From a virus (Duplodnaviria; Heunggongvirae; Uroviricota; Caudoviricetes), in IMG/VR virus record IMGVR_UViG_2585427772_000005, positions 1 through 25,733 of that record: a stretch of DNA of 25,733 nucleotides; one strand, written 5' to 3'. Each line of letters begins with the position of its first letter. Position 1 is the first letter of the stretch. Below, piece by piece: positions 4,180 to 25,733 of this stretch. The translations under genes and the position numbers were made by a program. Under the pieces are notes generated by a model. The model had not been told where the DNA came from. It made no database searches and saw only the letters and a program-made list of their open reading frames with translations.

Positions 4180-4364
4180 CGCCACTCTCCGAAAATACCG
4201 AGTTTAAGAAGGGCAATTCTGGAGAGTATGGAATTGTCATTCAGCAGGTAGGGTTCATATTTTCTCATATTGATTGCATCCTCGGTGAAATCCCTGTTAC
4301 TGAGCAGAACACCAATATTAAAGCACCCGTCAGACGTATTAACGTTTGGTAGTGACGTTTCCAT
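4176..4364 (-). CDS. Hypothetical protein, 62 aa
   Basis: Co-directional with its neighbours. GAGGA lies 7 nt upstream of the ATG and overlaps the Rha stop codon; its own stop overlaps the next gene start. Confidence 0.5.
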   Translation of the reverse strand: METSLPNVNTSDGCFNIGVLLSNRDFTEDAINMRKYEPYLLNDNSILSRIALLKLGIFGEWR

Positions 4365-4374
4365 TATCGCGTCC

Positions 4375-5775: not shown

Positions 5776-6150
5776 TTAATGATTAATTGATATTTTGTTG
5801 TTTGATTCAACTTTCCCATCGGATGTGTGATGCTTTAAATCACAGGAATTAATACTGCTCGCTGTAAAATGATTTTCAAGGGGAGCTATTCGAATCCCTT
5901 TCTTTTTCATTAACAAGCCAAATCCTTTATTAATGATGTCCATTAATTCCAGGAAGTATTTTTCATGTAAATCCTGGTTATCAGAGAGCTGCTTCTCTTC
6001 GTACAGACCGATAAAGGCACGACGCACGTTACCGGATATAGTATCGATGGTTTCTTTTTCTACGGTACTCAGGTCAAGAGTCGCCAGTTGAGAGCGAACC
6101 ACATTCGATGCCATTTCCTGGAATGGTACTGGTAAATCTTTAAATTCCAT
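5776..6150 (-). CDS. Hypothetical protein, about 124 aa (repressor-proximal accessory gene)
   Basis: GAGG lies 7 nt upstream of the internal ATG at 6150; the track start at 6162 lacks an SD. The 3' third of the gene is AT-rich. I recognise no family. Confidence 0.55.
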   Translation of the reverse strand: MEFKDLPVPFQEMASNVVRSQLATLDLSTVEKETIDTISGNVRRAFIGLYEEKQLSDNQDLHEKYFLELMDIINKGFGLLMKKKGIRIAPLENHFTASSINSCDLKHHTSDGKVESNNKISINH

Positions 6151-6161
6151 CGTCAACCTCA

Positions 6162-6314
6162 TCAGTCAGTGTTTCTGGTTAACCAGCGACGCGCGCCAGC
6201 TTCAGTTTTAAACGTTTTGCTTCTGGTATACGTCATCGCGGTAAACGTGCCGTCCTGGTTGGGAAACACGCCGTACACCAGAGATTCGTTGTTGCCAAGA
6301 TCGATAGTATCCAT
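6162..6314 (-). CDS. Small hypothetical protein, 50 aa (below the ORF-track size cutoff)
   Basis: ATG at 6314 with GAGG about 8 nt upstream. The translation MDTIDLGNNESLVYGVFPNQDGTFTAMTYTRSKTFKTEAGARRWLTRNTD has balanced composition. Its TGA stop overlaps the SD of the downstream gene. It sits where Rac-type prophages carry small ydaF/ydaG-like genes. Confidence 0.45.
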   Translation of the reverse strand: MDTIDLGNNESLVYGVFPNQDGTFTAMTYTRSKTFKTEAGARRWLTRNTD

Positions 6315-6519
6315 GCTGACCTCATTTCCCCTTAACGCCGGGTGGCGGAACTAAAACCTACAGCGCCGTGCTGTTCTTGATAGAAATATTAGTAACGCGG
6401 ATATTTTAAGTCAACAGTATGGCGTATGATATTTTTGATTTGGTAACTATGTAAATGTTTTTTCAAGGGAAAAATATTAGTTATACAGCTGATTTGCAGA
6501 AGTTATGGCACAAAAAAAC

Positions 6520-6553
6520 CAACTAAGACGTCGGTTTTTTTGTTGTGGATGGG
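6520..6553 (-). terminator. Candidate weak intrinsic terminator 3' of the repressor gene
   Basis: An A7CC ... GGT8 inverted repeat (9-bp, mostly A-U stem) around a GACGTC palindrome, immediately downstream of the repressor stop. The symmetric structure could act on either strand. Confidence 0.3.
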
Positions 6554-6567
6554 GTAGTGAGCGGTGG

Positions 6568-7029
6568 CTACTGGTTACGTTTCTTTAGTGCCAGCATGTT
6601 CTCGAAGGCTTCCTCGTAGAGCTTGTTTAGTCCACGTAGCTGGTTAAGGAGTTTGGCTTTTTCTGACGCAGGTAGAATCTCGAAGAGGTTAAGTAACTCT
6701 GCCTGTTCTTCATTGACCAGCCTCCATCCTTTGCCTGAAAAGTTATCATCATAAGTATCTGATGATCTTACATAATTCATTAAGTCTTTAAGGTCTTCTC
6801 GAATGTCCTCTGGTTTTACCTTTAACAGAGCCGCAAATTTTAGCGCAGCGTCGGTATTTACCGGTATCTTGCCGTTCAGATACTGGCTAACGGTGCCTTG
6901 AGATTCGAATCCCAACAACTCAGCCGCCAGCTCTTGAGTCAGCTTCAGCTCTTTTTTTCTTGCATTCCATGCGGCTTTTAAATTCTTGCTCGCTTCTGGA
7001 GTTGCAATCACTTCGCGTGTTTTTTTCAT
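6568..7029 (-). CDS. XRE-family HTH transcriptional repressor (CI/RacR-like prophage repressor, no S24 peptidase domain)
   Basis: 153-aa ORF with an N-terminal HTH (LTQELAAELLGFESQGTVSQYLNGK). It is transcribed divergently from a Cro-like gene across a 107-bp operator-bearing intergenic region. Confidence 0.75.
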   Translation of the reverse strand: MKKTREVIATPEASKNLKAAWNARKKELKLTQELAAELLGFESQGTVSQYLNGKIPVNTDAALKFAALLKVKPEDIREDLKDLMNYVRSSDTYDDNFSGKGWRLVNEEQAELLNLFEILPASEKAKLLNQLRGLNKLYEEAFENMLALKKRNQ

Positions 7030-14170: not shown

Positions 14171-14545
14171 ATGCTCATAGATTTGGTTTTACCTTACCCG
14201 CCGACGGTGAACACTTACTGGCGACGCCGTGGCAGCACATATTTTGTATCAAAAGCCGGGGAGCGTTATCGCCGGGCAGTGGCGCTTATTGTTCGCCAGC
14301 AGCGGCTGAAATTAAGCCTGTCCGGAAGGCTGGCGATAAAGGTGATTGCAGAGCCACCGGATAAGCGTCGTCGCGACCTGGACAATATCCTGAAAGCACC
14401 GCTGGATGCGCTGACGCATGCGGGAGTGTTAATGGACGATGAGCAGTTTGATGAAATCAATATCGTTCGTGGTCAGCCAGTATCTGGTGGACGTATGGGG
14501 GTGAAGATTTACCCCATAATGCATGAAGAGCAGGTCAAAAAATGA
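14171..14545 (+). CDS. rusA: Crossover junction endodeoxyribonuclease RusA (Holliday junction resolvase)
   Basis: 124-aa ORF with AGAGGTG upstream. Conserved RusA pattern (PPTVNTYWRRRG ... DKRRRDLDNILKAPLDALTHAGVLMDDEQ). Confidence 0.85.
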   Translation: MLIDLVLPYPPTVNTYWRRRGSTYFVSKAGERYRRAVALIVRQQRLKLSLSGRLAIKVIAEPPDKRRRDLDNILKAPLDALTHAGVLMDDEQFDEINIVRGQPVSGGRMGVKIYPIMHEEQVKK

Positions 14546-15363
14546 AACTGGAAGATTTACCGAAATACTACTCCCCAAAATCCCCTGGCCTGACCGATGC
14601 ATCGGCCTCAACGTCAAAAGATGCGCTGAGTATCACTGATGTGATGGCCGCGCAGGGCATGACACAGAATCGGGCTGAGATGGGGTTTTCTGCGTTCCTG
14701 GGGAAAATGGGCATCAGTATGAATGACAGGGCGCGGGCAACAGAATTACTGGCAGATTATGCACTCAGTCGGTGCGATCGTGTGGCGGCGTTGAGAAAAC
14801 TTCCGGCAGAAATAAAACCGGTAGTGATGCGCATTATGGCTTCGTATGCGTTTGAAGATTATGCCCGTAGCGCGGCGAGCAAAAAACAGTGCCCCTGCTG
14901 TCACGGAAAAAAATTTATTGAAAGCGAGGTTTTTACAAACAAGATCCAGTATCCGGATGGTAAGCCACCAGTGTGGGCAAAGTGCACAAAAGGCGTGTAT
15001 CCGTCTTACTGGGAAGAATGGAAAAAAGTCAGGGAGGTGGTAAAAGTTGCCTGTCCGGAGTGTGGCGGAAAGGGTGAGGTTTCCACCGCCTGTAAGGATT
15101 GCCGTGGGCGTGGTGTCGCCATTCATCGTGAAGAGTCGGTAAAACGTGGTATGCCTGTTATCAGAGATTGCCAGCGTTGTGGTGGTCGTGGCTGTGAAAG
15201 GCTGCCATCAACGGAGGCATTTAATGCCATATGCAAAGTGACGAGTGCTATCACGCTTGATACGTGGAAAAAATCAGTGAAACGCTTTTACGATACGTTG
15301 GTGGTTCGGTTTGACATTGAAGAGGCATGGGCGGAGCGGCAGTTAAAGAGGGTAACGCGATAG
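14542..15363 (+). CDS. Late-gene antitermination protein Q (Cys-rich zinc-binding Q family)
   Basis: 273-aa ORF coupled to rusA by an ATGA overlap. Multiple CxxC pairs (CPCCHGK, CPECGGKGE, CKDCRGRG, CQRCGGRGC), placed immediately upstream of a PR'-like promoter. Confidence 0.8.
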   Translation: MKLEDLPKYYSPKSPGLTDASASTSKDALSITDVMAAQGMTQNRAEMGFSAFLGKMGISMNDRARATELLADYALSRCDRVAALRKLPAEIKPVVMRIMASYAFEDYARSAASKKQCPCCHGKKFIESEVFTNKIQYPDGKPPVWAKCTKGVYPSYWEEWKKVREVVKVACPECGGKGEVSTACKDCRGRGVAIHREESVKRGMPVIRDCQRCGGRGCERLPSTEAFNAICKVTSAITLDTWKKSVKRFYDTLVVRFDIEEAWAERQLKRVTR

Positions 15364-15368
15364 TGTTG

Positions 15369-15397
15369 TTGATTTTTCCCGAATCTGTGGTAAATTT
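15369..15397 (+). promoter_or_regulatory. Candidate late promoter PR' / Q-utilisation region
   Basis: TTGATT, a 16-nt spacer, then TAAATT preceded by TGTGG. Lambda PR' also has a TAAATT -10 element. It starts 6 nt after the Q stop. Confidence 0.45.
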
Positions 15398-15443
15398 GCT
15401 CTAACGATGGGCGTTTTATGCCTGACGTTAGAAGATTTTTTAC

Positions 15444-15469
15444 ACCCCGCCGCCTGGCGGGTTTTTTAT
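15444..15469 (+). terminator. Rho-independent terminator (tR'-like) downstream of the candidate PR'
   Basis: CCCGCC-GCCT-GGCGGG hairpin followed by TTTTTTAT. Confidence 0.6.
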
Positions 15470-15589
15470 GACTGAAATCGCGTCAGTACAGTAAACGCGC
15501 TGGTGGCGGTGAATACCTGTCTTTCAGCTTGCTGGCTTTTTCGACAAGAGTTATTGGTGTGTCACGTTAACCGGAAAAGGGAAAAAGAC

Positions 15590-15787
15590 ATGCTAAAACA
15601 GCAGGATATGACAGAAACCGCCAGAGTGGTGTTTAATGAATTAAGCGTTACCGAACCGGCGACAGTCGGGGAGATAGCGCAGAATACTTACCTTTCACGC
15701 GAACGCTGCCAGTTAATACTGACCCAGCTGGTTATGGCGGGTCTGGCAGACTATCAGTTCGGTTGTTACAGACGCCTTCCGCAGTGA
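15590..15787 (+). CDS. Small putative winged-helix DNA-binding protein, 65 aa, in the late leader
   Basis: AAGGG 8 nt upstream of the ATG at 15590; the track start at 15503 lacks an SD. HTH-like segment TVGEIAQNTYLSRERCQLILTQLVMAGLADY. It is bracketed by two intrinsic terminators. Confidence 0.45.
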   Translation: MLKQQDMTETARVVFNELSVTEPATVGEIAQNTYLSRERCQLILTQLVMAGLADYQFGCYRRLPQ

Positions 15788-15799
15788 AGGCTTTTTTAT
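15774..15799 (+). terminator. Rho-independent terminator overlapping the stop codon of the small winged-helix ORF
   Basis: GCCTTC-CGCAGT-GAAGGC hairpin followed by TTTTTTATT. Confidence 0.6.
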
Positions 15800-15814
15800 T
15801 TGTGGTAAATGGGC

Positions 15815-15845
15815 GGCTGGTGGGTGTTAGGGGCACCCACCAGCC
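15815..15845 (+). other. 12-bp perfect-stem hairpin (GGCTGGTGGGTG / CACCCACCAGCC) with a 7-nt loop
   Basis: Direct reading. No U-tract follows. It lies just after a second copy of TGTGGTAAAT. Confidence 0.5.
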
Positions 15846-15937
15846 ATCTGCTCATGCGTTGGGTTCACAAGCAAACCTCAGGCCCACTGCTTTGCGCAAA
15901 AGCAGAATGAGCCTATCAGAGACAGGCTTAATGATCC

Positions 15938-16987
15938 ATGCTTAATACTGTAAAAATATCCAGTTGTGAGTTAATCAACGCCGACTGCCTGGAATTTATC
16001 CGGTCGTTACCCGAAAATTCTGTTGACCTGATAGTCACGGACCCGCCGTACTTTAAAGTGAAGCCTGAGGGCTGGGATAACCAGTGGAAGGGCGACGATG
16101 ATTACCTGAAGTGGCTGGACCAGTGTCTGGCGCAGTTCTGGCGGGTGCTGAAACCTGTCGGAAGTCTTTACCTGTTCTGTGGTCATCGCCTGGCATCTGA
16201 TATCGAAATCATGATGCGTGAACGCTTCAGTGTGCTGAACCATATTATCTGGGCGAAGCCGTCCGGACGCTGGAACGGATGCAACAAGGAAAGCCTGCGG
16301 GCGTATTTCCCCGCCACAGAGCGCATTCTGTTCGCGGAACATTATCAGGGGCCGTATCGTCCGAAAGATGCCGGGTATGCGGCGAAGGGCAGTGCACTGA
16401 AACAGCATGTGATGGCCCCGCTGATTTCTTACTTTCGTGATGCGCGCGCGGCCCTGGGGATAACGGCAAAACAGATTGCAGATGCCACAGGAAAGAAAAA
16501 CATGGTGTCGCACTGGTTCAGTGCCAGTCAGTGGCAGCTACCGAACGAAAGCGATTATCTGAAATTACAGTCGCTGTTTGCCCGGGTGGCAGAAGAGAAA
16601 CATCAGCGCGGTGAACTGGAAAAGCCCCACCACCAGCTGGTGGATACGTATACGTCACTGAACCGGCAGTATGTGGAGCTGCAGAGTGAATATAAGCATC
16701 TGCGGCGGTATTTTGGTGTGACGGCGCAGGTGCCGTACACGGATGTGTGGACACATAAACCGGTGCAGTTCTATCCCGGGAAACATCCGTGCGAAAAACC
16801 GGCAGAAATGCTGCAGCAGATAATCAGCGCAAGCAGTCGTCCGGGTGACCTGGTTGCAGATTTTTTTATGGGCTCAGGTTCAACGGTAAAAGCTGCACTG
16901 GCGCTCGGGCGTCGTGCGATTGGCGTTGAACTGGAGACCGGACGTTTTGAGCAGACAGTCAGGGAAGTTCAGGATTTAATCGTTTGA
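15938..16987 (+). CDS. Orphan DNA methyltransferase (probably N6-adenine; DPPY motif IV N-terminal to FxGxG motif I)
   Basis: 349-aa ORF. DLIVTDPPYF near the N-terminus and DFFMGSGSTVKAA near the C-terminus. No restriction-endonuclease-like partner ORF is adjacent. Confidence 0.85.
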   Translation: MLNTVKISSCELINADCLEFIRSLPENSVDLIVTDPPYFKVKPEGWDNQWKGDDDYLKWLDQCLAQFWRVLKPVGSLYLFCGHRLASDIEIMMRERFSVLNHIIWAKPSGRWNGCNKESLRAYFPATERILFAEHYQGPYRPKDAGYAAKGSALKQHVMAPLISYFRDARAALGITAKQIADATGKKNMVSHWFSASQWQLPNESDYLKLQSLFARVAEEKHQRGELEKPHHQLVDTYTSLNRQYVELQSEYKHLRRYFGVTAQVPYTDVWTHKPVQFYPGKHPCEKPAEMLQQIISASSRPGDLVADFFMGSGSTVKAALALGRRAIGVELETGRFEQTVREVQDLIV

Positions 16988-17036
16988 AACGGATGAGATT
17001 GCAGAATTAATTACGCACCATTATTATTCTGCTTCC

Positions 17037-17112
17037 GGCCCTTTAGCTCAGTGGTGAGAGCGAGCGACTCATAATCGCCAGGTCGCTGGTTCAAATCCAG
17101 CAAGGGCCACCA
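17037..17112 (+). tRNA. tRNA with CAU anticodon, most likely tRNA-Ile2 (lysidine-modified, reads AUA)
   Basis: Cloverleaf read by hand: acceptor GGCCCTT/AAGGGCC, D-arm GCTC..GAGC, anticodon loop CTCATAA, T-arm GCTGG-TTCAAAT-CCAGC, encoded CCA. Closely resembles E. coli tRNA-Ile2 as recalled. Confidence 0.85.
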
Positions 17113-17212
17113 TCACAAACCGCCATTAGCTTATCAGGAAGAGCAGACGACACGATAACAGGGTTGTTGGTGCGGGGGCGGGTCCCCGATGACGGTCCAT
17201 TATCGGTATTCA

Positions 17213-17289
17213 GCGTTGTTAGCTCAGCCGGACAGAGCAATTGCCTTCTAAGCAATCGGTCACTGGTTCGAATCCAGTACAGCGCGCCA
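17213..17289 (+). tRNA. tRNA-Arg (anticodon UCU, reads AGA/AGG)
   Basis: Cloverleaf: acceptor GCGTTGT/ACAGCGC with one G-U pair, anticodon stem ATTGC/GCAAT, loop CTTCTAA, T-arm ACTGG-TTCGAAT-CCAGT, encoded CCA. Confidence 0.9.
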
Positions 17290-17396
17290 TATTCATTCTT
17301 CCAGATTCCTTTCGGCAGAGCCTTATACTGAAATATACCTGGCTCAGGATATTGTTGAAAATATTATATGTTTGTCAAAAATAAAAGTTCTGTTAA

Positions 17397-17753
17397 GTGT
17401 TGATTGAGTGTTTGTTATACGGTCTAATGGTTTTTTCAGCATTAAATATTTATCATTCATATGGTGTGGGTAGAGTGAATATTGATGAGGCGTCGGGGTG
17501 TTTCATCCTTAGGCAGCGTATTGATATAGTCAATGCAGAACGAGCAAAGGCCTTCAGCCGTTTGACAGTTTTGTTCTGTACTCCTGATCGTCTTTCGGGA
17601 AGAGACGTTATTATTCTGAATAGTGATGCTATACAGAGGGTTTGCGATGAGTTCATGGTGGCTAATTCAGAATTATTTGCTCTTGTTCAGGAGTACAACA
17701 GAATAGCCAGGACCTGTGGTATGGATGAACTTCGGATTACTCATCTGGGGTAG
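17397..17753 (+). CDS. Hypothetical cargo ORF, up to 118 aa; start uncertain
   Basis: Open frame in the AT-rich segment. No convincing SD before either the GTG at 17397 or the ATG at 17427. Composition is protein-like. Confidence 0.3.
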   Translation: MLIECLLYGLMVFSALNIYHSYGVGRVNIDEASGCFILRQRIDIVNAERAKAFSRLTVLFCTPDRLSGRDVIILNSDAIQRVCDEFMVANSELFALVQEYNRIARTCGMDELRITHLG

Positions 17754-18144
17754 ATACATATCTGGATTATCACCGGTTACGGTAAAAAGTGATTGCTTAC
17801 TGTTTTTGTGAATGGCATTGCAGCAGCCGGATAATGTCAGTGCTGGCTGACGGTGTGCTGGTGGCGGGGGTGGTGGTTGCTGCTTTCCCGTTGCTGAAAA
17901 AGAAAACGCCAGACTGTTAGCCGGGTATCAGTTAGCGGGAGAAATTTTTAAATACTTCACAATTCAGGCGGTTGACTGTTGTCTGGTTTGCGGGGAGTTT
18001 GTTAAAAGAAACTGGCATGGTGAATCCCCCTGTGCGGAGGGGCAATCAGCGAGTAGGTATATGGGATAATCGCGGATTCAGGTGCTGGTACTGAATTCAC
18101 CGGGAGGCACCCGGCACCATGCAATGGCACATAGCGCCACTCTC

Positions 18145-18178
18145 CAGCCCCTCTCCGGAGGGGCTGTTTATATTGATT
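18145..18178 (+). terminator. Strong rho-independent terminator
   Basis: 9-bp perfect GC-rich stem CAGCCCCTC / GAGGGGCTG with loop TCCG, followed by TTTATATTGATTTT. It lies 23 nt beyond the 3' end of the minus-strand ORF 18201..18536. Confidence 0.65.
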
Positions 18179-18200
18179 TTGTCAGATGTGAGTAAACTCC

Positions 18201-18536
18201 TTATGGACTTTGTTGTTTTAGCCCATAAGGACATATTTGCAGAGTGCAACGGTTATTAAAGCATTCATTCAATACGTTATCTGTATTTGTAGGGCATTCC
18301 TGGCTGTTTTTGATTAAATTCCAGAATGTTTTATTGAATGGTACTACGTTGTAAATGGTTACAGGCAGCACTTTGTTATTGAGCATGATGCCTGTGTGAG
18401 TCAGTGTAAATATACTTTCAGGAGGTAAGAAAGCATCCGATTGATACCAGATTATTAATTTTATTTTACTCCATATGACTGAAAAAGATATTCCGCATGA
18501 TGGCTGGATAACTGTATCAATCACAATCCACTTCAT
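18201..18536 (-). CDS. Hypothetical AT-rich cargo protein, 111 aa, on the opposite strand to the late operon
   Basis: AAGGAA 6 nt upstream of the ATG at 18536. Cys-containing C-terminus ([16 protein letters not shown]). A 245-bp AT-rich promoter-like region lies upstream. I recognise no family. Confidence 0.5.
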
Positions 18537-18781
18537 TTAGTTTCCTTGTTTATGCCTTGCTGGTGATGTTCTGAAAAGTATAAATGATATTTTTGATTGT
18601 AAACCATAGAGCAGAATTATTTTTCTGATGTTGTTTATTGTTTATTTAAATGCAGGGTGGTTTATATCTCGTCTTGTAGTTTATCCATGCATATCTGCTT
18701 GATGATGAGGTTTTTAATTAAGGTATGGTTTTGTGTTTTTTCTGTATTACATGTCAGGTATTTTAAAGAATCATTTTTCAG

Positions 18782-20647
18782 ATGGTGGAAAGAACCATGG
18801 CATTTAAACACTATGATGTTGTCAGGGCGGCGTCGCCGTCAGATCTTGCGGAAAAGCTGACACATAAACTGAAAGAGGGCTGGCAGCCGTTTGGTAGTCC
18901 GGTGGCCATAACCCCTTATACCCTGATGCAGGCGATTGCAGCAGAAGGTGATGTGGTCGTCAGTGGTGCAACTGAGCCGGAGTGGTACTACGTCATCGTA
19001 CTGGCCGGGCAGTCCAATGCCATGGCTTACGGTGAAGGGCTTCCGCTTCCGGATTCATACGATGCGCCCCATCCGCGCATTAAGCAACTGGCCCGTCGTA
19101 ACACAGTGACTCCCGGTGGTGAAGTATGCGTATTTAACGACATCATTCCTGCTGACCATTGTCTGCATGATGTTCAGGATATGAGTACGATTAACCATCC
19201 CCGGGCTGACCTGAGCAAAGGGCAGTACGGCTGTGTCGGACAGGGCTTACATATTGCCAAAAAACTGCTTCCGTATATCCCTAATAACGCGGGGATCCTG
19301 CTGGTACCATGCTGTCGTGGTGGTTCGGCATTCACCCAGGGCACGGAGGGGACATTCAGCGAGTCCACGGGGGCCAGTCAGGATTCGGCTCGCTGGGGAG
19401 TGGGTAAGCCGTTATATCAGGATCTGCTTTTCCGCACGAAGGCAGCATTGCAGAAAAACCCGAAAAACGTTTTGCTGGCGATATGCTGGATGCAGGGGGA
19501 ATTCGATATGACGAATGCCAGTTACGCCCAGCAGCCAGCAGCATTTCTTGCAATGGTACAGCAGTTCCGTGCTGACCTTGCCGGGCTGGCGGCGCAGTGT
19601 CACGGTGGAAGTCCGGCATCAGTCCCCTGGATTTGTGGCGACACGACATACGCGTGGAAACAAGAACACGGTACGCAATATGAAGTGGTATATGGTGCAT
19701 ATAAAGGTAAAGAATCCCAGCAGATTTATTTTGTTCCCTTTATGACCGATGGTAGCGGAGTTAATACACCGACAAACAACCCGTCAGAAGATCCTGATAT
19801 TGTCGGGTCTGGTTATTACGGTTCGGCATCCCGAACGAACAAAAACTGGGTATCATCAAATCGCCCGACGCATTTCAGCTCATGGGCGCGTCGTGGCATT
19901 ATTCCCGATCGTATGGCAACCGCTATTCTGAACGCAGCCGGGCGCACCTCAGCCTTCATCAGTGGTAAGGCACCGGAAATCAAACCCTCGCCCGGCGGCG
20001 ACACGCCATCGGGTCCGTCTGCAGATACGTCCGTTCGCACAATCTCCCTGCTGCCGACAGCCGGAGAGGCTGCTGCGCAGGGCTGGAGCATTAAGAATGG
20101 CGGAATTCAGTTGTCAGATGGTGTATTTAAGATCACCAAGCAGAGCAATAAAGCCTGGTCCCTGACGCGCCCGGTGGATGACGCAGTCTCCCTGCTGACA
20201 CGGGGTGGCAGACTGAGCTGTAAGTTTCGACTGTCAGGCGCACTGACCAACAACCAGTTCGGTCTGGGAATTTATCTGTATACCGATGTAGCGTTACCTG
20301 ACGTCGTGGCGATGACCGGGACTGGTAACCCGTTCCTGATGTCGTTCTTCACCCAGACCACAGACGGCAAACTGAATCTGATGCATCACAAGAAAGCCGG
20401 AAACACAAAGTTGGGCGAGTTCGGGAATTACAGTAACGACTGGCAGACGCTGGAGCTGGTGTTCACCGCCGGCAGTGCCACGGTTACTCCGAAACTGAAT
20501 GGAGTGGCTGGCCCGGCATTCCAGGTCATAAAAGACAGTCTGACACTGGGGCTGAATGCGCTGACGTTAACTGATATCACTAAAAATGCCGCGTACGGCG
20601 TCGATATCGGCAGCCTGGTGCTGGAAATCAATAATCCCGCAGCATAA
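18782..20647 (+). CDS. NanS-p-like sialate O-acetylesterase (DUF1737 N-domain, SASA/SGNH esterase domain, C-terminal lectin-like domain)
   Basis: 621-aa ORF. VIVLAGQSNAMAYGEG is the SGNH/SASA catalytic-serine motif. Same architecture and position (after the tRNAs) as the nanS-p/yjhS-like genes of Stx phages. The alternative start at 18797 (MAFKHYDV) has a modest SD. Confidence 0.8.
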   Translation: MVERTMAFKHYDVVRAASPSDLAEKLTHKLKEGWQPFGSPVAITPYTLMQAIAAEGDVVVSGATEPEWYYVIVLAGQSNAMAYGEGLPLPDSYDAPHPRIKQLARRNTVTPGGEVCVFNDIIPADHCLHDVQDMSTINHPRADLSKGQYGCVGQGLHIAKKLLPYIPNNAGILLVPCCRGGSAFTQGTEGTFSESTGASQDSARWGVGKPLYQDLLFRTKAALQKNPKNVLLAICWMQGEFDMTNASYAQQPAAFLAMVQQFRADLAGLAAQCHGGSPASVPWICGDTTYAWKQEHGTQYEVVYGAYKGKESQQIYFVPFMTDGSGVNTPTNNPSEDPDIVGSGYYGSASRTNKNWVSSNRPTHFSSWARRGIIPDRMATAILNAAGRTSAFISGKAPEIKPSPGGDTPSGPSADTSVRTISLLPTAGEAAAQGWSIKNGGIQLSDGVFKITKQSNKAWSLTRPVDDAVSLLTRGGRLSCKFRLSGALTNNQFGLGIYLYTDVALPDVVAMTGTGNPFLMSFFTQTTDGKLNLMHHKKAGNTKLGEFGNYSNDWQTLELVFTAGSATVTPKLNGVAGPAFQVIKDSLTLGLNALTLTDITKNAAYGVDIGSLVLEINNPAA

Positions 20648-20670
20648 GGAAGAGCAGGAGAGCAAAACAG

Positions 20671-21138
20671 ATGCTTAAGACAAACAGTCTGCGAGAGTCC
20701 ATGCTTCATGGGTGTCGGTGGTGCCAGGCTAATCCCGAGAAATTCACCATTTTCGTGGAGAGCGGCAACATTGAAACGACCGGAGAAGCGCCCTCGTTTG
20801 TTTACCGCTATCAGATGGTGATGTTTGTCATGGATTACGCCGGAGAGCTGGACGACCTCACGCTGCCGCTGCTGGCGTGGTTATCCGAAAATCAGCCACA
20901 GTTGTTGCTCAATCCGGAGCGTAATCAGGACATCAAATTTTCTGCCGTTATCAATGACGATGACAGCGCCGATCTCCTGTTTACGCTCCCCCTGCGGGAA
21001 CGCGTTCGCATCACGCGCAACAGTCAGGGCACACCGCAGGCAGAACACCTGCCGGAGCCAAAACCCCGTCTGCCCTCTTCCGAAGGCGACTGGTCGCATG
21101 TATTCCAGGATGTGACGTGGGGTGAAAGCGATGGATAA
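20671..21138 (+). CDS. P2 gpR-like tail completion protein
   Basis: 155-aa ORF with AGGAG upstream. Similar in length and sequence to P2 R as recalled (LPLLAWLSENQP against P2 VPVLAWLRENQP). Confidence 0.75.
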   Translation: MLKTNSLRESMLHGCRWCQANPEKFTIFVESGNIETTGEAPSFVYRYQMVMFVMDYAGELDDLTLPLLAWLSENQPQLLLNPERNQDIKFSAVINDDDSADLLFTLPLRERVRITRNSQGTPQAEHLPEPKPRLPSSEGDWSHVFQDVTWGESDG

Positions 21139-21766
21139 GGCATTCACCAGCGTGGATGAAACCTTTGAGGCTATCCGCGACAGCCTGAATCAGCAGGCCA
21201 TCAATAACATCGCCAGAAAGCTGGCACAGGATTTACGTCGCGCCCAGCAGGCACGTATCCGATCACAAAAAGCGCCGGACGGGACCGAATGGACACCACG
21301 CAGACGCCGCGTAACCCGGATACAGGAGCGCATTCGCTTTATCTGGAATAACGAAGCACGCACGCTGAAAAACTGGCATCACGACACGGGGAAATACGGG
21401 CGAACCATTACCGGGTGGGATGAGGATAAAAACAATATCCGCACGTTTTACCGGGATGACATCGACCGTTTTCTGGAAATACGCACCCGGCGCATCAACC
21501 AGGACAGCACAAAGCGCGTCCCCATGTTCGTAAAACTGCGCACCGCCCGCTACCTGAAAGCCCGTGCAGATGCCTCCGGTGTGACGGTGGGTTACAGCGG
21601 CGTGGCCGCACGTATTGCACGCGTTCATCAGTTCGGTGAGCGCGATCAGGTTGCGCCGGGCATTTTCACCGATTACCCGGTACGTGAGCTGTTGGGTATC
21701 AGCCAGGCAGATGAGCGCCTGATTTATAACACGGTGCTGGGCCGGATTGCGGAGGCTGTACGGTGA
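21131..21766 (+). CDS. P2 gpS-like tail completion / virion morphogenesis protein
   Basis: ATG overlaps the R stop (ATGGATAA). Position between R and V and family resemblance; longer than P2 S. Confidence 0.65.
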   Translation: MDKAFTSVDETFEAIRDSLNQQAINNIARKLAQDLRRAQQARIRSQKAPDGTEWTPRRRRVTRIQERIRFIWNNEARTLKNWHHDTGKYGRTITGWDEDKNNIRTFYRDDIDRFLEIRTRRINQDSTKRVPMFVKLRTARYLKARADASGVTVGYSGVAARIARVHQFGERDQVAPGIFTDYPVRELLGISQADERLIYNTVLGRIAEAVR

Positions 21767-22344
21767 GCGCAGAACTCATGCGACTGCTGAGCAACATCAT
21801 CCGCACCGGGATCATCTCTGAAGTTGATGAGAAGTCCTGGCGCGTGCGCGTTCGCAGCGGCGAACTGGAAACAGGCTGGTTGCGCTGGAACACCACGCGC
21901 GCGGGAGCCTTCAATGTGTGGCTGCCGCCATCACCAGGCGAACAGGTGGTAATTGCCTGCATTGGCGGCAACCCGGAAACCGCCATGATAATTGGCAGCC
22001 TGTGGAGTGATGCCAGTCCGGCCCCCGGCAAAAGCCTGAAAGAAATCGTGGTCAGCGCGCCGGATGGCGCGGTGTTCCGCTACGACGCAGACGCTGGCGC
22101 ACTGAGCGCCAGCGGCATGAAAACAGCCACCCTGCAGGCATCCGTCAGCGTGACACTGGATACGCCCGTCGTGGAATGCACAAACCTTCTGAGAACAGCG
22201 ACGCTTGACGTCACAAAAGGGGGAAAGATGAGCGGCAATATCACGCACAGCGGCGGCAACTTCACCTCAAACGGCATCACAGTGCATACGCATAAACACG
22301 GTGGTGTGAAAGGCGGCAGCGATTCGACAGGAGGCCCGCAGTGA
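21763..22344 (+). CDS. Baseplate assembly protein V (P2 gpV-like spike)
   Basis: Strong similarity to P2 V across the length (IRTGII ... GEQVVIACIGG ... PDGAVFRYD ... TLDTPVVECTN ... KGGKMSGNITHSGG ... HTHKHGG). GTG start overlaps the S stop. Confidence 0.85.
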   Translation: MSAELMRLLSNIIRTGIISEVDEKSWRVRVRSGELETGWLRWNTTRAGAFNVWLPPSPGEQVVIACIGGNPETAMIIGSLWSDASPAPGKSLKEIVVSAPDGAVFRYDADAGALSASGMKTATLQASVSVTLDTPVVECTNLLRTATLDVTKGGKMSGNITHSGGNFTSNGITVHTHKHGGVKGGSDSTGGPQ

Positions 22345-22691
22345 CAACCCGCTACACAGGAATGAATCCGGACGGGACGGGAAACCTGAATGATATGGAG
22401 CACCTGAAACAGTCAGCCAGGGACATCCTGACCACCCCGCTGGCCAGCCGGGTTATGCGACGGGAATATGGCAGCCTTGTACCTGATTTGATTGACGAAC
22501 CCATGAATAACACCACGCGTCTGCAATGCATGAGTGCTGCCGTGATTGCGCTGACACGATGGGAACCCCGCATTGCCCTGGACGCCATCGACGTTGTCTG
22601 GAAAGCGGGAGGCCGCGCCGGGGTGACGCTGTCGGGCACTGTCATGCAGACCATGCAGAATGTTGAGTTAACCATCACGCTGAGGGAGTAA
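22341..22691 (+). CDS. Baseplate assembly protein W (P2 gpW, gp25-like)
   Basis: VTTRYTGMN ... RVMRREYGSL ... WEPRIAL against P2 W MTARYLGMN ... RVMRRDYGSL ... WEPRVTL. GTGA overlap with V. Confidence 0.85.
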   Translation: MTTRYTGMNPDGTGNLNDMEHLKQSARDILTTPLASRVMRREYGSLVPDLIDEPMNNTTRLQCMSAAVIALTRWEPRIALDAIDVVWKAGGRAGVTLSGTVMQTMQNVELTITLRE

Positions 22692-22694
22692 ATC

Positions 22695-23591
22695 ATGCCT
22701 GCTGTTGACCTTTCCCAGTTACCGGAACCCGCCATCATCGCGAAGCCTGATTTTGAGGCAATTCTGGCTGACACAAAGGCCATGATGATTGCGTCCTATC
22801 CTGCCGAACAGCGTGAAGCCGTCTCCGCCGCGCTGGAGCTGGAATCGGAACCCCTGAACGTTATCGCCCAGACAACAGCGTTTCGTGAAATGCTGTTACG
22901 CCAGCGGGTCAATGAGGGTGCACGCGCCTGCATGTTAAGCCACAGCGCCGGGACAGACCTGGACAACCTCGCGGGCAATATGAACACAAAGCGCCTGGTT
23001 ATCACTCCGGCAACGGATACCACCGACGCGGTGATGGAAAGCGACACATCGCTGAGACTGCGGGCGCAACGGGCGTATGACGGTCTGAGTGTTGCTGGCC
23101 CGTCAGGCGCATACGAGTATTTTGCACGCAGCGCCAGCGGTCTGGTACGCGACGCGCGAGCCATCAGCCCGTCTCCGGCCAACGTGACGGTTTCCATCCT
23201 GTCCACTGAAGGCGACGGCACAGCAACGGAGGCGTTGCTTAATACCGTTCGCGCCGTTCTGAATGCAGAGGATACCCGCCCGGTGGCCGACCGCCTGACC
23301 GTACAGAGCGCCAGAATCGTGACATGGCGGCTGAATGCAAAACTGTACTTTTACCCCGGCCCGGAATCCGAACCTATTCTGGCCGCGGCTGAATCGTCGT
23401 TCAGGAAGTGGCTGGCTGAGCAGGGGCTTATCGGTCAGGACGTGGCGTTGTCCGCCATTGCTGCCGCACTGCATGTGCACGGTGTGCAACGCGTGGAGAT
23501 AATCGAACCCACACAGAATATGGCCATCAGCGACATACAGGCGGCGCGCTGTGAGTCATTCACCATCAGCGAAGGTGGACGCAATGAGTAA
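22695..23591 (+). CDS. Baseplate assembly protein J (P2 gpJ)
   Basis: Near-collinear similarity to P2 J (LPEPAIIAKPDFE ... RQRVNE ... DGLSVAG ... YEYFARSA ... RPVADRLTVQSA ... YPGPESEPI ... LHVHGVQRVE). GGGAG upstream. Confidence 0.9.
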   Translation: MPAVDLSQLPEPAIIAKPDFEAILADTKAMMIASYPAEQREAVSAALELESEPLNVIAQTTAFREMLLRQRVNEGARACMLSHSAGTDLDNLAGNMNTKRLVITPATDTTDAVMESDTSLRLRAQRAYDGLSVAGPSGAYEYFARSASGLVRDARAISPSPANVTVSILSTEGDGTATEALLNTVRAVLNAEDTRPVADRLTVQSARIVTWRLNAKLYFYPGPESEPILAAAESSFRKWLAEQGLIGQDVALSAIAAALHVHGVQRVEIIEPTQNMAISDIQAARCESFTISEGGRNE

Positions 23592-24192
23592 TTCGTTGTT
23601 ACCACCATCAGCCAGCAATTTCATGCGTTGTGCCGAAGCCGTCGGAACACGCATTACAGACATTCCGGTAGACCTCAACACGCTGTGGTCGCCGGACACC
23701 TGCCCGGTGCATCTGCTGCCTTATCTCGCCTGGGCGTTTTCCGTTGACCGCTGGGATCGCAACTGGCCGGAAGAGACAAAGCGACAGGTGATTCGTGATG
23801 CATGGCTGATACACCGACACAAAGGGACCATCAGCGCACTGCGAAGAGCCGTGGAGCCTCTCGGCTACCTGATTGAAGTAAAGGAGTGGTGGCAACTCAA
23901 CGAGGAGCCGGGAACATTTCGCATTGTTGTCGGAGTACTTGATCAGGGCATCACCGATGAAATGTATCAGGAACTTGAGCGCCTTATTGCGGATGCAAAA
24001 CCAGTAAGTCGCCATCTGACGGGGCTGGCGATCAGCCTGAGTGTGAACGGAAAGATTTTCGTTGGTACGGGATGCTATCACGGCGATGCCCTGACGGTTT
24101 ATCCCTACACCCCGGAGTCCATTATTGTCGAAGGGGATTATTTCCCTGCCCCGGCCATTCATTTAATTGATAATCTGAGAGTAAACGCATGA
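23584..24192 (+). CDS. Tail protein I (P2 gpI)
   Basis: ATG overlaps the J stop (ATGAGTAA); the track start at 23551 lies inside J. Similarity to P2 I (WSPDTCPVHLLPYLAWAFSVDRWD ... HKGTISALRRAVEPLGYLI ... IADAKPVSRHL). Confidence 0.85.
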   Translation: MSNSLLPPSASNFMRCAEAVGTRITDIPVDLNTLWSPDTCPVHLLPYLAWAFSVDRWDRNWPEETKRQVIRDAWLIHRHKGTISALRRAVEPLGYLIEVKEWWQLNEEPGTFRIVVGVLDQGITDEMYQELERLIADAKPVSRHLTGLAISLSVNGKIFVGTGCYHGDALTVYPYTPESIIVEGDYFPAPAIHLIDNLRVNA

Positions 24193-25733
24193 CAGTGAAA
24201 TACTACGCCATTCTGACTAATCAGGGCGCGGCACGACTGGCTAACGCGACGATGCTCGGCAGTAAGCTGAATCTGACGCGAATGGCCGTTGGTGATGCAA
24301 ATGGTGTGTTACCAACACCAGACCCTGCACAAACAAAACTGATTAACCAGAAACGCATTGCACCGCTGAATCTTCTGAGTGTTGACCCTAACAATCAGAG
24401 CCAGATTATTGCGGAGCAAATCATCCCTGAAAGCGAGGGTGGATTCTGGATCCGTGAGATTGGTCTTTATGATGATAAAGGTGTACTCATTGCGGTGGCA
24501 AACTGCCCGGAAACGTACAAACCGCAGTTGCAGGAAGGCAGTGGACGCACCCAGACTATCCGCATGATTCTGGTTGTCACGAACACCGAAGCCATCACGC
24601 TGAAAATCGACCCGTCTGTGGTTCTGGCAACCCGCAAATATGTGGATGATAAAATCTCAAAGCACGAGCAGTCACGACGTCACCCGGACGCCTCGCTGAC
24701 CGCAAAAGGCTTTGTTCAACTTAGCAGTGCCACGGACAGTCAATCAGAAACTGAGGCTGCCACGCCGAAGGCTGTGAAAATCGCGTATGATCTGGCCTGG
24801 GGAAAATACACAGCCCAGGATGCAACAACGACCCGTAAAGGGATCGTACAACTGAGCAGTGCCACCAACAGCACCTCTGAAACGCTGGCCGCCACACCAA
24901 AAGCCGTCAAGGCGGCATACGACCTTGCAGCCGGCAAGGCCCCCGTCAGCCACACTCACCCATGGAGTCAGATAACGGGAGTGCCTGCTGCCTCGCTGAC
25001 GGCAAAAGGCACCGTACAACTGAGCAGTGCCATCAACAGCACGTCTGAAATACTGGCCGCCACACCGAAAGCGGTCAAGGATGCATACGATCTGGCAAAC
25101 GGAAAACAACCGGCAGATGCCACGCTCACTGCTCTGGCAGGACTTGCCACTGCAGCAGATCGGTTGCCTTATTTTACCGGAGCAGACCGCGCAGCGCTGG
25201 CAACCCTTACAGCTATTGGTCGCGCTATTATCGCTAAGGGCAGTATAAAAGATGTCCTCAATTACCTTGGTTTGGGGGAAGGCTCTGCATTGCCTGTTGG
25301 TGTACCGGTTCCGTGGCCCACCGCCACACCGCCAGAAGGCTGGTTAAAGTGCGACGGGCGCGCCTTTACAAAAGAACAATATCCTGTTCTGGCCAGAGCC
25401 TACCCGACCCTCCGTCTTCCCGATTTACGCGGTGAATTTATTCGTGGCTGGGATGACGGACGTGGTGTGGATGCCGGGCGACAATTATTATCTTCACAGG
25501 GGGATGCAATAAGAAATATTGAGGGATTCGCAGATGGCGGGATCGGTATGTCTTTTGATGCAATCAGAGGGGCTTTTTACGATGCAGGAACACGATCAGC
25601 GAGAATGCCGAATAACACAACTACTATAGACAAAACCGATGACCTTGGATTCGACGCCTCTCGTGTCGTGCCAACAGCTAATGAAAACCGTCCTCGTAAT
25701 ATTGCCTTTAATTATATCGTAAGGGCGGCATAA
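24189..25733 (+). CDS. Tail fibre protein (P2 gpH-like N-terminus, three tail-fibre repeats, C-terminal collar/receptor-binding-like domain)
   Basis: ATGA overlap with I. The N-terminus matches P2 H (GGFWIREIGLYDDKGVLIAVAN ... YKPQLQEGSGR ... KYVDDKISKHEQSRRHPDASLTAKGF). The stop codon is at the last three bases of the window. Confidence 0.85.
   Translation: MTVKYYAILTNQGAARLANATMLGSKLNLTRMAVGDANGVLPTPDPAQTKLINQKRIAPLNLLSVDPNNQSQIIAEQIIPESEGGFWIREIGLYDDKGVLIAVANCPETYKPQLQEGSGRTQTIRMILVVTNTEAITLKIDPSVVLATRKYVDDKISKHEQSRRHPDASLTAKGFVQLSSATDSQSETEAATPKAVKIAYDLAWGKYTAQDATTTRKGIVQLSSATNSTSETLAATPKAVKAAYDLAAGKAPVSHTHPWSQITGVPAASLTAKGTVQLSSAINSTSEILAATPKAVKDAYDLANGKQPADATLTALAGLATAADRLPYFTGADRAALATLTAIGRAIIAKGSIKDVLNYLGLGEGSALPVGVPVPWPTATPPEGWLKCDGRAFTKEQYPVLARAYPTLRLPDLRGEFIRGWDDGRGVDAGRQLLSSQGDAIRNIEGFADGGIGMSFDAIRGAFYDAGTRSARMPNNTTTIDKTDDLGFDASRVVPTANENRPRNIAFNYIVRAA
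24690..25110 (+). repeat. Three tandem roughly 145-bp in-frame repeats in the fibre gene (TAKGxVQLSSAxNSTSExLAATPKAVKxAYDLAxGK)
   Basis: Direct reading of DNA and protein. The repeats also create the spurious antisense ORFs 24740..24955, 24744..25109 and 24968..25150. Confidence 0.8.

What the first reader, a model, noticed from the sequence alone, without database searches (positions are those of the whole stretch)
20600..21200. Lambdoid late region joined directly to a P2-type tail module, with no lysis or head genes
The esterase stop at 20647 is followed 23 nt later by a P2 R-like gene, then S, V, W, J, I and H in P2 order with overlapping start/stop codons. Between Q at 14542 and the window end I find no holin, endolysin, spanin, terminase, portal or capsid gene. 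In lambda-like and Stx phages the lysis genes follow the late promoter, and in P2 the lysis genes precede R. This is therefore a recombinational junction. The element is either a defective mosaic prophage or a tail-only (tailocin-like) cluster driven by a lambdoid Q-dependent late promoter.
Basis: partly seen in the sequence, partly recalled or inferred. Interest (0 to 1): 0.6.

Follow-up and report, generated by a model that had tools for sequence, protein, structure and literature searches.

The report
Lambda-like and P2-like prophage hybrid
Two unrelated E. coli prophages, one lambda-like and one P2-like, carry related copies of a sugar-esterase gene; they recombined inside that gene to give a rare defective hybrid, not a purpose-built tail-only killing device.

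Summary
Q, a methyltransferase, two tRNAs, iraM and a SASA/DUF6645 (NanS-p-type) esterase are followed 23 nt later by P2-type R, S, V, W, J, I and H. The window has no lysis, head or packaging gene.

The 20647/20671 boundary is not the recombination joint. Esterase-stop, 23-nt spacer and R are native to a common family of complete P2-like prophages. These carry an esterase cassette between lysC and R, and the adjacency is present in about 375 of 5,426 complete E. coli genomes.

The true crossover lies inside the esterase gene, in a 375-bp stretch (20171-20545) that is identical in both parent types. To its left the window is 99.6% identical to a complete lambda-like prophage at ompW. To its right it is 100% identical to an ordinary P2-like prophage.

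The joint recurs identically in three independent assemblies, so it is real. No complete genome has it. The window is the end of contig JORM01000015.1.

The P2 arm continues with tfa, invertase, U and tape measure. It lacks baseplate gene X and any lysis cassette, and its sheath/tube genes lie on the opposite strand. A Q-driven tailocin is therefore unlikely.

I could not determine whether the event was a deletion-type fusion, an inversion, or insertion of the whole P2-like genome.

The parts
14542..15363 (+). Lambdoid antiterminator Q, the last regulatory gene of the lambda-like left arm.
   Evidence: Pfam PF03589, E=2e-49, and PHROG 'anti-termination protein Q-like'. The DNA is 99.6% identical to the ompW prophage of FDAARGOS_1259.
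15446..15461 (+). Terminator-like hairpin followed by a T-run just downstream of Q. It is a candidate tR' of the late promoter region. A second one lies at 15774-15791.
   Evidence: Consensus scan only. Function is inferred by analogy with lambda PR'/tR'.
15938..16987 (+). DNA methyltransferase, cargo of the lambdoid late leader region.
   Evidence: Pfam PF01555, E=2.7e-44.
17037..17289 (+). Two tRNA genes: anticodon CAT (annotated tRNA-Ile in the relative) at 17037-17112, and Arg-UCU at 17213-17289.
   Evidence: ARAGORN and the annotation of L002.
18201..18536 (-). iraM/PmrD-like gene. It is a lambdoid-specific marker just upstream of the esterase.
   Evidence: PF11183 on the called genes of L004, L005 and L006. 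Annotated as IraM in L002.
18797..20647 (+). Hybrid NanS-p-type sialate O-acetylesterase, 616 aa (WP_032218146.1). The first ATG is at 18782. The lambdoid allele runs to at least 20170 and the P2-like allele starts by 20546.
   Evidence: Pfam DUF1737, SASA and DUF6645. Informative sites. Exact-protein look-ups.
20171..20545 (.). Crossover interval: 375 bp identical in the lambdoid parent proxy (L002) and the P2-like parent proxy (L018). Against the ST131-type P2-like allele the interval narrows to 20399-20545.
   Evidence: The last lambdoid-specific site is 20170. The first P2-specific site is 20546.
20546..20712 (+). Right end of the P2-like esterase cassette. It holds the last 102 nt of the esterase, the 23-nt spacer and the first 42 nt of R. 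It is native to P2-like prophages and is not a joint.
   Evidence: 100% identical to L018. The cassette boundary against esterase-less P2-likes lies at window 20713.
20671..21138 (+). P2 gpR-type tail terminator / tail completion protein.
   Evidence: PF06891, E=1.4e-38. Role taken from the P2 cryo-EM preprint.
21131..21766 (+). P2 gpS-type tail completion / virion morphogenesis protein. An alternative GTG start lies at 21122.
   Evidence: PF05069, E=4e-27.
21778..22344 (+). Baseplate spike gpV. An alternative GTG start lies at 21763.
   Evidence: PF04717, PF18715 and PF18946.
22341..22691 (+). Baseplate wedge gpW.
   Evidence: PF04965 and PHROG 43.
22695..23591 (+). Baseplate wedge gpJ.
   Evidence: PF04865.
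23584..24192 (+). Baseplate wedge / fibre-attachment gpI.
   Evidence: PF09684, E=4e-53. The exact protein is listed in 16,544 blocks of the assembly collection.
24189..25733 (+). Tail fibre gpH, 514 aa. The window ends at its stop codon.
   Evidence: PF12571, PF03406 and PF07484. The exact protein is on only 8 contigs.
25264..25733 (+). Switchable C-terminal segment of H, part of an invertible tail-fibre region.
   Evidence: The same 467-470 bp lie inverted in L005, L003, L007, L012 and L013, next to a resolvase-type invertase.

Best explanation
The window is the left part of a hybrid prophage made by ordinary homologous recombination between two paralogous NanS-p-type esterase genes.

The parents. 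One copy is the usual cargo gene downstream of Q in a complete lambda-like prophage integrated in the 3' end of ompW. The other is a ~2-kb cargo cassette that a subset of P2-like (P88-type) prophages carry between lysC and R. The two copies share a near-identical 3' segment.

The event. The strand exchange fell in 20171-20545. The product reads ompW, int, immunity and replication genes, Q, methylase, tRNAs, iraM, esterase (lambdoid 5' part, P2-like 3' part), R-S-V-W-J-I-H, tfa, invertase, U, T and onward.

Consequences (inferred). The lambdoid half keeps integration, immunity, replication and Q. It has lost its lysis, head and tail genes and its own right attachment site. The P2 half has lost its integrase, repressor, replication, head, X and lysis genes, and the late promoter that normally drives O through S. 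The element therefore cannot excise, package or lyse on its own, so it is a grounded, defective prophage. On SOS induction, Q-modified RNA polymerase starting at PR' would be expected to read through the esterase into R-S and probably V-H. It cannot reach the sheath/tube operon, which is on the other strand.

My preferred architecture, held at about 0.45, is a deletion-type fusion that left a single esterase copy. Inversion and insertion of the whole P2-like genome are not excluded.
For: Parents identified.
- Window 15300-20632 is 99.6% identical to the ompW lambda-like prophage of FDAARGOS_1259. In that prophage the esterase is followed by holin, YdfR, lysozyme, spanin, terminase, portal, capsid and tail genes.
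- Window 20546-25733 is 100.000% identical (5,188 bp) to contig BGLZ01000041.1. That contig is an ordinary P2-like prophage with O, N, M, L, X, holin, M15 endolysin, LysB, LysC, esterase, then R through H.
- R through I are 100% identical in complete genome NZ_OZ040035.

Joint mapped. Informative sites switch from lambdoid-type (up to 20170) to P2-type (from 20546). The 375 bp between are identical in both.

The esterase-R adjacency is native. About 375 of 5,426 complete genomes have it inside complete P2-like prophages. Esterase-less siblings have lysC overlapping R.

The joint is real.
- The exact 616-aa hybrid protein and identical DNA occur in JORM01000015.1, which is the source of the window (0 mismatches).
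- They also occur in DAYBYU010000043.1, which differs by 2 SNPs over 6.4 kb.
- They also occur in contig ERZ27246364 k141_3533, which is 100% identical.

The left flank is ompW. The P2 arm continues with tfa, invertase, U and T in L005.

Hints of a single copy.
- A contig whose name (k141_3533) suggests a k=141 assembly crosses the 375-bp identical stretch, and so does the third-party (TPA) assembly contig L005.
- Contigs of related genomes break exactly at that stretch (L017 starts at 20547 and L021 at 20402).
- Reciprocal proteins built from the best parent alleles are absent from the protein collection or carry no accession from these assemblies.
Against: - The DNA to the right of the tape-measure gene of a hybrid strain could not be retrieved. 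The right end, the fate of the lambdoid late genes and the fate of the P2 left arm are therefore unknown.
- A deletion-type fusion needs the two prophages close together and in the same orientation. I found no genome with such an arrangement. The known sites of this P2-like family are dmsA/serS (inverted relative to the ompW prophage), leuZ and flk (direct, but hundreds of kb away).
- The single-copy argument rests on assembler behaviour and on parent proxies that differ from the true ancestors by up to 0.4%.
- Chimeric esterases of the reciprocal type (P2 N-terminal part with lambdoid-type C-terminus) do exist in other assemblies. Two-copy outcomes or gene conversion therefore occur in nature.
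- All transcription statements are inferences. The promoter and terminator scans were at chance level.
Confidence: 0.85

Rival explanations
1. Same crossover, but as a chromosomal inversion between an ompW lambda-like prophage and an oppositely oriented P2-like prophage, for example at dmsA/serS. The reciprocal hybrid (P2 early, head and lysis genes joined to the lambdoid lysis, head and tail genes) would then sit several hundred kb away in the same genome.
For: - In ST131-type genomes the two prophages coexist in inverted orientation about 490 kb apart.
- The invertase-U-T region of L005 is 99.8% identical to the dmsA/serS-site prophage of OZ040015.
- A prophage-prophage inversion at tail-fibre genes appears to be present in complete genome 4/0.
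- Large rearrangements by recombination between prophages are documented for O157:H7 (PMC8743559).
- Reciprocal-type chimeric esterases exist in the protein collection.
Against: - Two copies of the 375-bp identical stretch would be expected to break a k=141 de Bruijn contig. L006 crosses the stretch, and so do L004 and L005.
- No reciprocal protein carries an accession from the two hybrid assemblies.
- The inversion would lie within one replichore, which is usually selected against (general knowledge).
- No complete genome shows either junction.
Confidence: 0.3
2. A whole circular P2-like genome, excised or infecting, inserted into the lambdoid esterase gene by a single crossover (Campbell-type). 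The hybrid prophage would then contain the complete P2-like genome, permuted, followed by the intact lambdoid late region. Both gene sets would be complete in one locus.
For: - A single crossover between a circle and a prophage gives exactly the left junction seen.
- Prophages nested inside prophages are known in E. coli (PMC8112680).
Against: - It also gives two copies of the identical stretch, so it meets the same assembler argument as the inversion.
- No reciprocal protein is on record from the same assemblies.
- No such nested arrangement is present in 5,426 complete genomes.
Confidence: 0.08
3. A dedicated tail-only (R-type tailocin) locus in which the lambdoid Q and late promoter have been recruited to drive a P2-type tail module.
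For: - There are no head or packaging genes in the window.
- All seven tail genes are intact.
- There is no terminator-like site between the esterase and R.
- The P2 arm continues with tfa, U and T.
- The tail of the ST131 P2-like prophage has been likened to pyocin R2 (PMC9205054).
Against: - Baseplate glue protein gene X and every lysis gene lie upstream of the crossover in the parent, so they are lost.
- Sheath, tube, E, T and U are on the opposite strand and cannot be reached from PR'.
- Both halves are 99.6-100% identical to ordinary prophages, so the event is recent and shows no adaptation.
- The joint was found in only three assemblies and in none of 5,426 complete genomes.
Confidence: 0.05
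4. Assembly artefact: a chimeric contig joined across the shared esterase repeat in a genome that really holds the two parental prophages.
For: - The window comes from a short-read draft assembly.
- The repeat is 375 bp of perfect identity inside about 735 bp of ~98% identity.
- Related genomes' contigs break there.
Against: The identical junction is present in three independent assemblies. These are a 2014 isolate draft, a third-party (TPA) isolate assembly and an ENA contig named k141_3533. All three would have to make the same false join in the same direction.
Confidence: 0.05

Closest known systems
Prophage-prophage homologous recombination in E. coli: large chromosomal rearrangements and 'grounded' or defective hybrid prophages (e.g. 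O157:H7; PMC8743559, PMC6379469)
   Same: Recombination at a stretch of shared sequence between two resident prophages yields hybrids that keep one arm of each parent and lose autonomy. Both parents are identifiable at 99.6-100% identity.
   Different: The partners here belong to unrelated phage types, a lambda-like siphovirus and a P2-like myovirus. The shared sequence is a cargo gene rather than a phage core or tail-fibre gene. Whether the outcome was an inversion or a deletion is not known.
P2-like (P88-type) prophages of E. coli that carry the esterase cassette, for example the ST131 's2-ST131' prophage (PMC9205054)
   Same: The segment from esterase 3' end through the 23-nt spacer and R-S-V-W-J-I-H to the invertible fibre segment is identical in order. 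It is 100% identical in sequence to BGLZ01000041.1.
   Different: The window lacks everything to the left of the esterase 3' end: int, repressor, cox, replication genes, portal, terminase, capsid, X, holin, endolysin, LysB and LysC.
Lambda-like prophage integrated in ompW (e.g. FDAARGOS_1259) with a NanS-p-type esterase downstream of Q, as in Stx phages and phage 434
   Same: The order int, xis, immunity, O/P, DUF968, RusA, Q, methylase, tRNAs, iraM, esterase is the same, at 99.6% identity, and the attachment site is the same.
   Different: In the parent the esterase is followed by a terminator, a holin, lysozyme, spanin, terminase, head and tail genes. Here P2 tail genes follow.
R-type tailocins (pyocin R2)
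   Same: P2-related contractile-tail genes are present without head genes in the sequence seen.
   Different: There is no lysis cassette and no X homologue. There is no dedicated regulator pair and no conserved chromosomal locus. The locus is a recent recombinant, not a maintained one.

Membership tests
Lambdoid late region (Q-dependent late operon) | A Q-family antiterminator followed by the late promoter/terminator region. | tested here: met
   PF03589, E=2e-49. Terminator-like hairpins at 15446-15461 and 15774-15791 (consensus only).
Lambdoid late region (Q-dependent late operon) | A holin-endolysin-spanin cassette, then terminase, head and tail genes downstream of the late promoter. | tested here: not met
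   tblastn with the parent's lysis, terminase, portal, capsid and tail proteins gave no hit. These genes are present in the parent L002.
P2-type tail module | R, S, V, W, J, I and H homologues in P2 order. | tested here: met
   Pfam hits for all seven, in that order.
P2-type tail module | Baseplate glue protein X. | tested here: not met
   X (PF05489) lies between L and the holin in the parent. There is no tblastn hit in the window. Its structural role is described in the P2 cryo-EM preprint.
P2-type tail module | Sheath, tube, E/E', tape measure, U, D and the late activator Ogr. | tested here: inconclusive
   None is in the window. U and the tape measure follow in hybrid contig L005. The rest was seen only in non-hybrid or undetermined relatives (L017).
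R-type tailocin locus | A complete contractile-tail gene set with its own lysis genes and no head genes. | tested here: not met
   There are no lysis genes and no X. The absence of head genes is shown only for the window and for L005.
R-type tailocin locus | Maintained as such across a lineage or species at a fixed locus. | tested here: not met
   0 of 5,426 complete E. coli genomes have it. Only three assemblies carry the joint.
Recombinant (hybrid) prophage formed by homologous recombination | Each side is near-identical to a different extant element, with an identical stretch at the switch point. | tested here: met
   99.6% to the left and 100% to the right, with 375 identical bp between the last and first informative sites.
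Recombinant (hybrid) prophage formed by homologous recombination | The junction is reproducible in independent data. | tested here: met
   Three assemblies have an identical joint.
Recombinant (hybrid) prophage formed by homologous recombination | The reciprocal product, or proof of its loss, in the same genome. | tested here: inconclusive
   17 constructed reciprocal proteins were tested. 4 exist in the collection, but none carries an accession of the hybrid assemblies.

The most novel reading that the evidence does not exclude
The hybrid is a working SOS-inducible weapon. The lambdoid repressor, Q and PR' control P2 tail-completion, baseplate and fibre genes. Ogr, freed from P2 immunity, turns on the sheath/tube operon. 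X and lysis functions are supplied by another resident prophage. The strain would then release headless contractile particles, a tailocin in the making caught just after its birth.
Probability: 0.05. Interest if true: 0.65.

Novelty: new member of a known kind. Interest (0 to 1): 0.25.

Why it matters
The result corrects a tempting reading. What looks like a lambdoid late promoter grafted straight onto a P2 tail module is mostly a native P2-like arrangement. The real graft is hidden inside a gene that both phage types carry.

The modest point of interest is that a NanS-p-type esterase cargo gene acts as portable homology. It lets a lambda-like and a P2-like prophage, which otherwise share almost nothing, recombine cleanly. 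Chimeric esterase alleles in both directions exist in public assemblies.

The esterase cassette sits between lysC and R in about 7% of complete E. coli genomes. It is in none of 50,697 deposited phage records. This may deserve a note of its own.

For annotation pipelines, this is an example of a predicted prophage whose two halves have different origins and which is almost certainly defective.

Tried and rejected
1. Looking for the source or other copies of the joint. I used a 590-nt split pattern made of a lambdoid-specific block, N470 and a P2-specific block. It found nothing in GTDB species representatives, IMG/VR or JGI metagenomes. The pattern itself was verified on the window.

2. Exact look-up of the esterase from the first ATG (621 aa) found nothing. 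The annotated start (616 aa) worked.

3. Fetching the right end of hybrid contig DAYBYU010000043.1.
- The gpI look-up was swamped by ordinary prophages (16,544 blocks).
- The gpH look-up found relatives but not that contig.
- I tried to unlock L005's own H protein with the search for homologous proteins. It returned 120 longer fibre proteins and not the exact one, so that search was wasted.

4. L017, which is 99.96% identical to the window's P2 arm, seemed to give the right flank (leuZ site). Its contig starts at the repeat boundary, so it may be a parental genome. Its ogr/hok end is of a different type from L005's relatives. I did not use it to place the hybrid.

5. The ogr-type promoter motif TGT-N12-ACA has no site upstream of V, and its count in the window is at chance level. 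The sigma-70 promoter and terminator scans were also at chance level. I used them only as weak hints.

6. A chimeric DNA query for the reciprocal junction was not discriminating on coverage, because megablast runs through the diverged 5' part. On identity, no record reached 95% at full length.

7. No paper mentions JORM01 or GCA_000713185.

8. P0129, a 616-aa esterase from a complete NCTC genome, looked like a second hybrid. It is a diverged lambdoid allele (94% identity) with a mosaic C-terminus.


Full report
**What is in the window.**
The window is 100% identical to the last 25.7 kb of contig JORM01000015.1 of the E. coli draft assembly GCA_000713185.1. The contig runs only 74 bp further. 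The window begins at the stop codon of a lambda-type integrase and ends at the stop codon of a tail-fibre gene. To the left of the integrase the contig carries ompW, yciC, yciB, yciA, tonB, kch and cls.

From left to right the window holds:
- int and xis, then a large exonuclease-like gene, Rha/Ash and DicB-type genes;
- an HTH repressor with a YdaS/YdaT pair;
- DnaT-like and lambda-P-like replication genes;
- DUF968, RusA and antiterminator Q;
- a DNA methylase, two tRNA genes and an iraM-like gene;
- a 616-aa SASA/DUF6645 esterase of the NanS-p type.

Twenty-three nucleotides after the esterase stop come P2-type R, S, V, W, J, I and H, tightly packed. None of 26 lysis, head, packaging, X, sheath, tube, U or Ogr proteins taken from the two parental phage types has a tblastn match in the window.

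**The esterase-R boundary is not a joint.**
A 2-kb query across the boundary matched about 375 of 5,426 complete E. coli genomes over at least 80% of its length. In every case I opened, the match lies inside a complete P2-like prophage. The gene order there is portal, terminase, scaffold, capsid, small terminase, L, tail protein X, holin, M15 endolysin, LysB, LysC, esterase, R, S, V, W, J, I, H, tfa, invertible segment and invertase. The genes U, T, E, tube and sheath follow on the other strand, and then D and ogr.

Sibling prophages lack the esterase and have lysC overlapping R. Compared with them, the esterase form has about 2.0 kb in place of 93 bp, and the right edge of the replacement lies 42 nt inside R, at window 20713. 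None of 50,697 deposited phage records has the esterase next to R. P88-type phages match only from window 20713 onward, and lambdoid and Stx phages match only up to the esterase stop.

The stretch "esterase stop, 23 nt, R" is thus the native right end of a cargo cassette of P2-like prophages.

**Where the two phages are really joined.**
The part of the window from Q to the esterase is 99.6% identical to the prophage at ompW in strain FDAARGOS_1259. That is a complete lambda-like prophage in which the esterase is followed by a terminator, holin, YdfR, lysozyme, spanin, terminase, portal, protease, capsid and lambda-type tail genes, ending at yciE.

Window 20546-25733 is 100.000% identical, over 5,188 bp, to contig BGLZ01000041.1. 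That contig is an ordinary esterase-bearing P2-like prophage with the same 514-aa fibre protein. R through I are also 100% identical in complete genome NZ_OZ040035.

Site-by-site comparison shows that the window carries the lambdoid allele at every informative site up to 20170 and the P2-like allele at every informative site from 20546. The 375 bp between are identical in both parent types. Against the ST131-type P2-like allele the interval is 20399-20545.

The two esterase paralogues are only about 70-75% alike in their 5' two-thirds and in their last 100 bp. They are 98-100% alike in between. This points to earlier sequence exchange between them. C-terminal variants in the protein cluster are visibly mosaic.

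**Is the joint real?**
No complete genome holds it:
- no record covers window 15300-22500 in one place;
- no record ranks as a full-length high-identity match for 18900-21700;
- none reaches 99% over 20000-20670.

Yet the exact hybrid protein (WP_032218146.1) is on three independent contigs:
- the source contig;
- DAYBYU010000043.1, a third-party (TPA) assembly of another isolate, with 2 SNPs over 6.4 kb and a different fibre state;
- contig k141_3533 of ENA assembly ERZ27246364, which is 100% identical over 2.9 kb.

Three assemblies making the same false join is very unlikely. I take the junction as real and inherited from one event.

**What follows the window.**
In DAYBYU010000043.1 the P2 arm goes on with H, tfa, two promoterless alternative fibre ends, a resolvase-type invertase, U and the tape measure, at 99.8% identity to the OZ040015 prophage. 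The last 470 bp of the window's H lie inverted in that contig and in several other prophages. This is an invertible fibre segment of the kind found in phages Mu and P1 (from my own knowledge of those phages). It probably explains why the source contig stops there. The remaining 20 kb of the DAYBYU contig could not be fetched with the tools allowed.

**Architecture: what can and cannot be said.**
A single crossover between two esterase copies has three possible outcomes:
- a deletion-type fusion, if the prophages are in the same orientation and near each other;
- an inversion with a reciprocal hybrid elsewhere, if they are in opposite orientation;
- insertion of a whole circular P2-like genome.

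Evidence leaning to a single copy:
- a contig whose name suggests a k=141 assembly, and two other assemblies, run through the 375-bp identical stretch;
- contigs of related genomes stop exactly at its edges;
- the reciprocal proteins I could build from the best parent alleles are either absent from the 15-billion-protein collection or carry no accession from the two hybrid assemblies.

Evidence against a simple deletion:
- the known attachment sites of this P2-like family are dmsA/serS (opposite orientation to the ompW prophage), leuZ-cysT-glyW and flk (same orientation, but 0.7-1.1 Mb away across essential genes);
- I found no genome with a P2-like prophage next to ompW.

Evidence for inversion as a live option:
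- the two prophages coexist in inverted orientation in ST131 genomes;
- a prophage-prophage inversion at fibre genes appears to be present in strain 4/0;
- such rearrangements are well documented (PMC8743559).

I put deletion-type fusion at about 0.45, inversion at 0.3, whole-genome insertion at 0.08 and artefact at 0.05.

**How it most likely behaves (inference).**
The lambdoid half keeps int/xis, immunity, replication and Q. It has no lysis, head or tail genes and no lambdoid right attachment site in the sequence seen.

The P2 half has lost the late promoter upstream of O, from which the run of genes from O through the lysis genes and esterase to R and S is transcribed in phage P2 (established P2 knowledge). 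It has also lost X, which the P2 cryo-EM study describes as the six-copy baseplate "glue" protein.

There is no terminator-like site between the esterase and R, and no TGT-N12-ACA motif upstream of V (both are weak evidence). After induction, Q-modified polymerase would probably transcribe R, S and perhaps V through H. The sheath, tube, E, T and U genes lie on the opposite strand and depend on Ogr-type activation.

Without X, without lysis genes and without a way to excise, the element is best seen as a grounded, defective prophage. A working tailocin is possible only with help in trans. I give it about 5%.

**Comparison with known things and novelty.**
This is a new instance of a known process, homologous recombination between resident prophages yielding hybrid, defective elements. 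What is slightly unusual is the pair of partners (lambda-like and P2-like) and the substrate, a shared cargo gene rather than a core or fibre gene. The NanS-p esterase family itself is well studied in Stx and other lambdoid prophages (PMC8065619). The ST131 P2-like prophage has been described as intact, with a pyocin-R2-like tail (PMC9205054). I rate interest at 0.25.

Noticed in passing
window 18797-20712; L001 18960-20902; L018 4527-6524: A ~2-kb NanS-p-type esterase cassette sits between lysC and R in a subset of P2-like prophages. It is present in about 375 of 5,426 complete E. coli genomes and in none of 50,697 deposited phage records. Its middle 3' part is 98-100% identical to lambdoid alleles, while the rest is about 70-75% identical. 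This suggests repeated exchange between the two phage families.
   Followed up: partly
L025 (NZ_CP023849.1, strain 4/0) 23644-27750: In ST131 strain 4/0 the P2-like prophage runs from cox to H and is then joined, in inverted orientation, to the tail-fibre, baseplate, sheath and head genes of a different (Mu-like) prophage. This looks like an inversion between two prophages at their fibre genes, in a complete genome.
   Followed up: no
window 25264-25733; L005 8535-9004 (inverted); invertase at L005 9068-9667: The C-terminal part of the tail-fibre gene H belongs to an invertible segment with several promoterless alternative ends and a resolvase-type invertase. The source contig ends 74 bp past H, and different assemblies show different orientations.
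   Followed up: partly
protein collection: P0136 (CAM6955338.1), P0151 (WP_139501607.1), P0137, P0138: Esterase proteins with a P2-like N-terminal part and a lambdoid-type C-terminus, the reciprocal of the window's hybrid, exist on 1-18 contigs each. It is unknown whether they mark reciprocal crossovers or gene conversion, because their context could not be fetched.
   Followed up: partly
L023/L001 (dmsA-serS), L024 (next to leuZ-cysT-glyW), L026 (next to flk): Near-identical P2-like tail modules (R-I 99.9-100%) sit in prophages at three or more different chromosomal sites with different int/cox modules. The family is strongly mosaic between its left and right arms.
   Followed up: partly
L001 35026-35879; L024 18802-19655; L026 33198-34051: In several complete genomes the P2 D (hub) gene is annotated as a shortened 266-aa 'VgrG/Pvc8 family' protein next to a small pseudogene fragment. 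It is 369 aa in L003, L015 and L017. The BMC Biology paper on ST131 also noted a frameshift annotation here. This could be a real defect or a programmed feature.
   Followed up: no
window 17037-17289 and 18201-18536: The lambdoid late leader carries two tRNA genes (anticodons CAT and UCU) and an iraM/PmrD-like anti-adaptor gene on the opposite strand, between Q and the esterase. This is typical cargo of the position that Stx genes occupy in Stx phages.
   Followed up: no
L002 8763-9460 versus window 1422-7000: The closest complete relative of the lambdoid arm (FDAARGOS_1259) has an IS1 insertion with loss of the immunity region. The window keeps an intact exonuclease-like gene, repressor and cro-like genes. 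The exact 824-aa exonuclease-like protein of the window is on only 4 contigs in the whole collection.
   Followed up: partly
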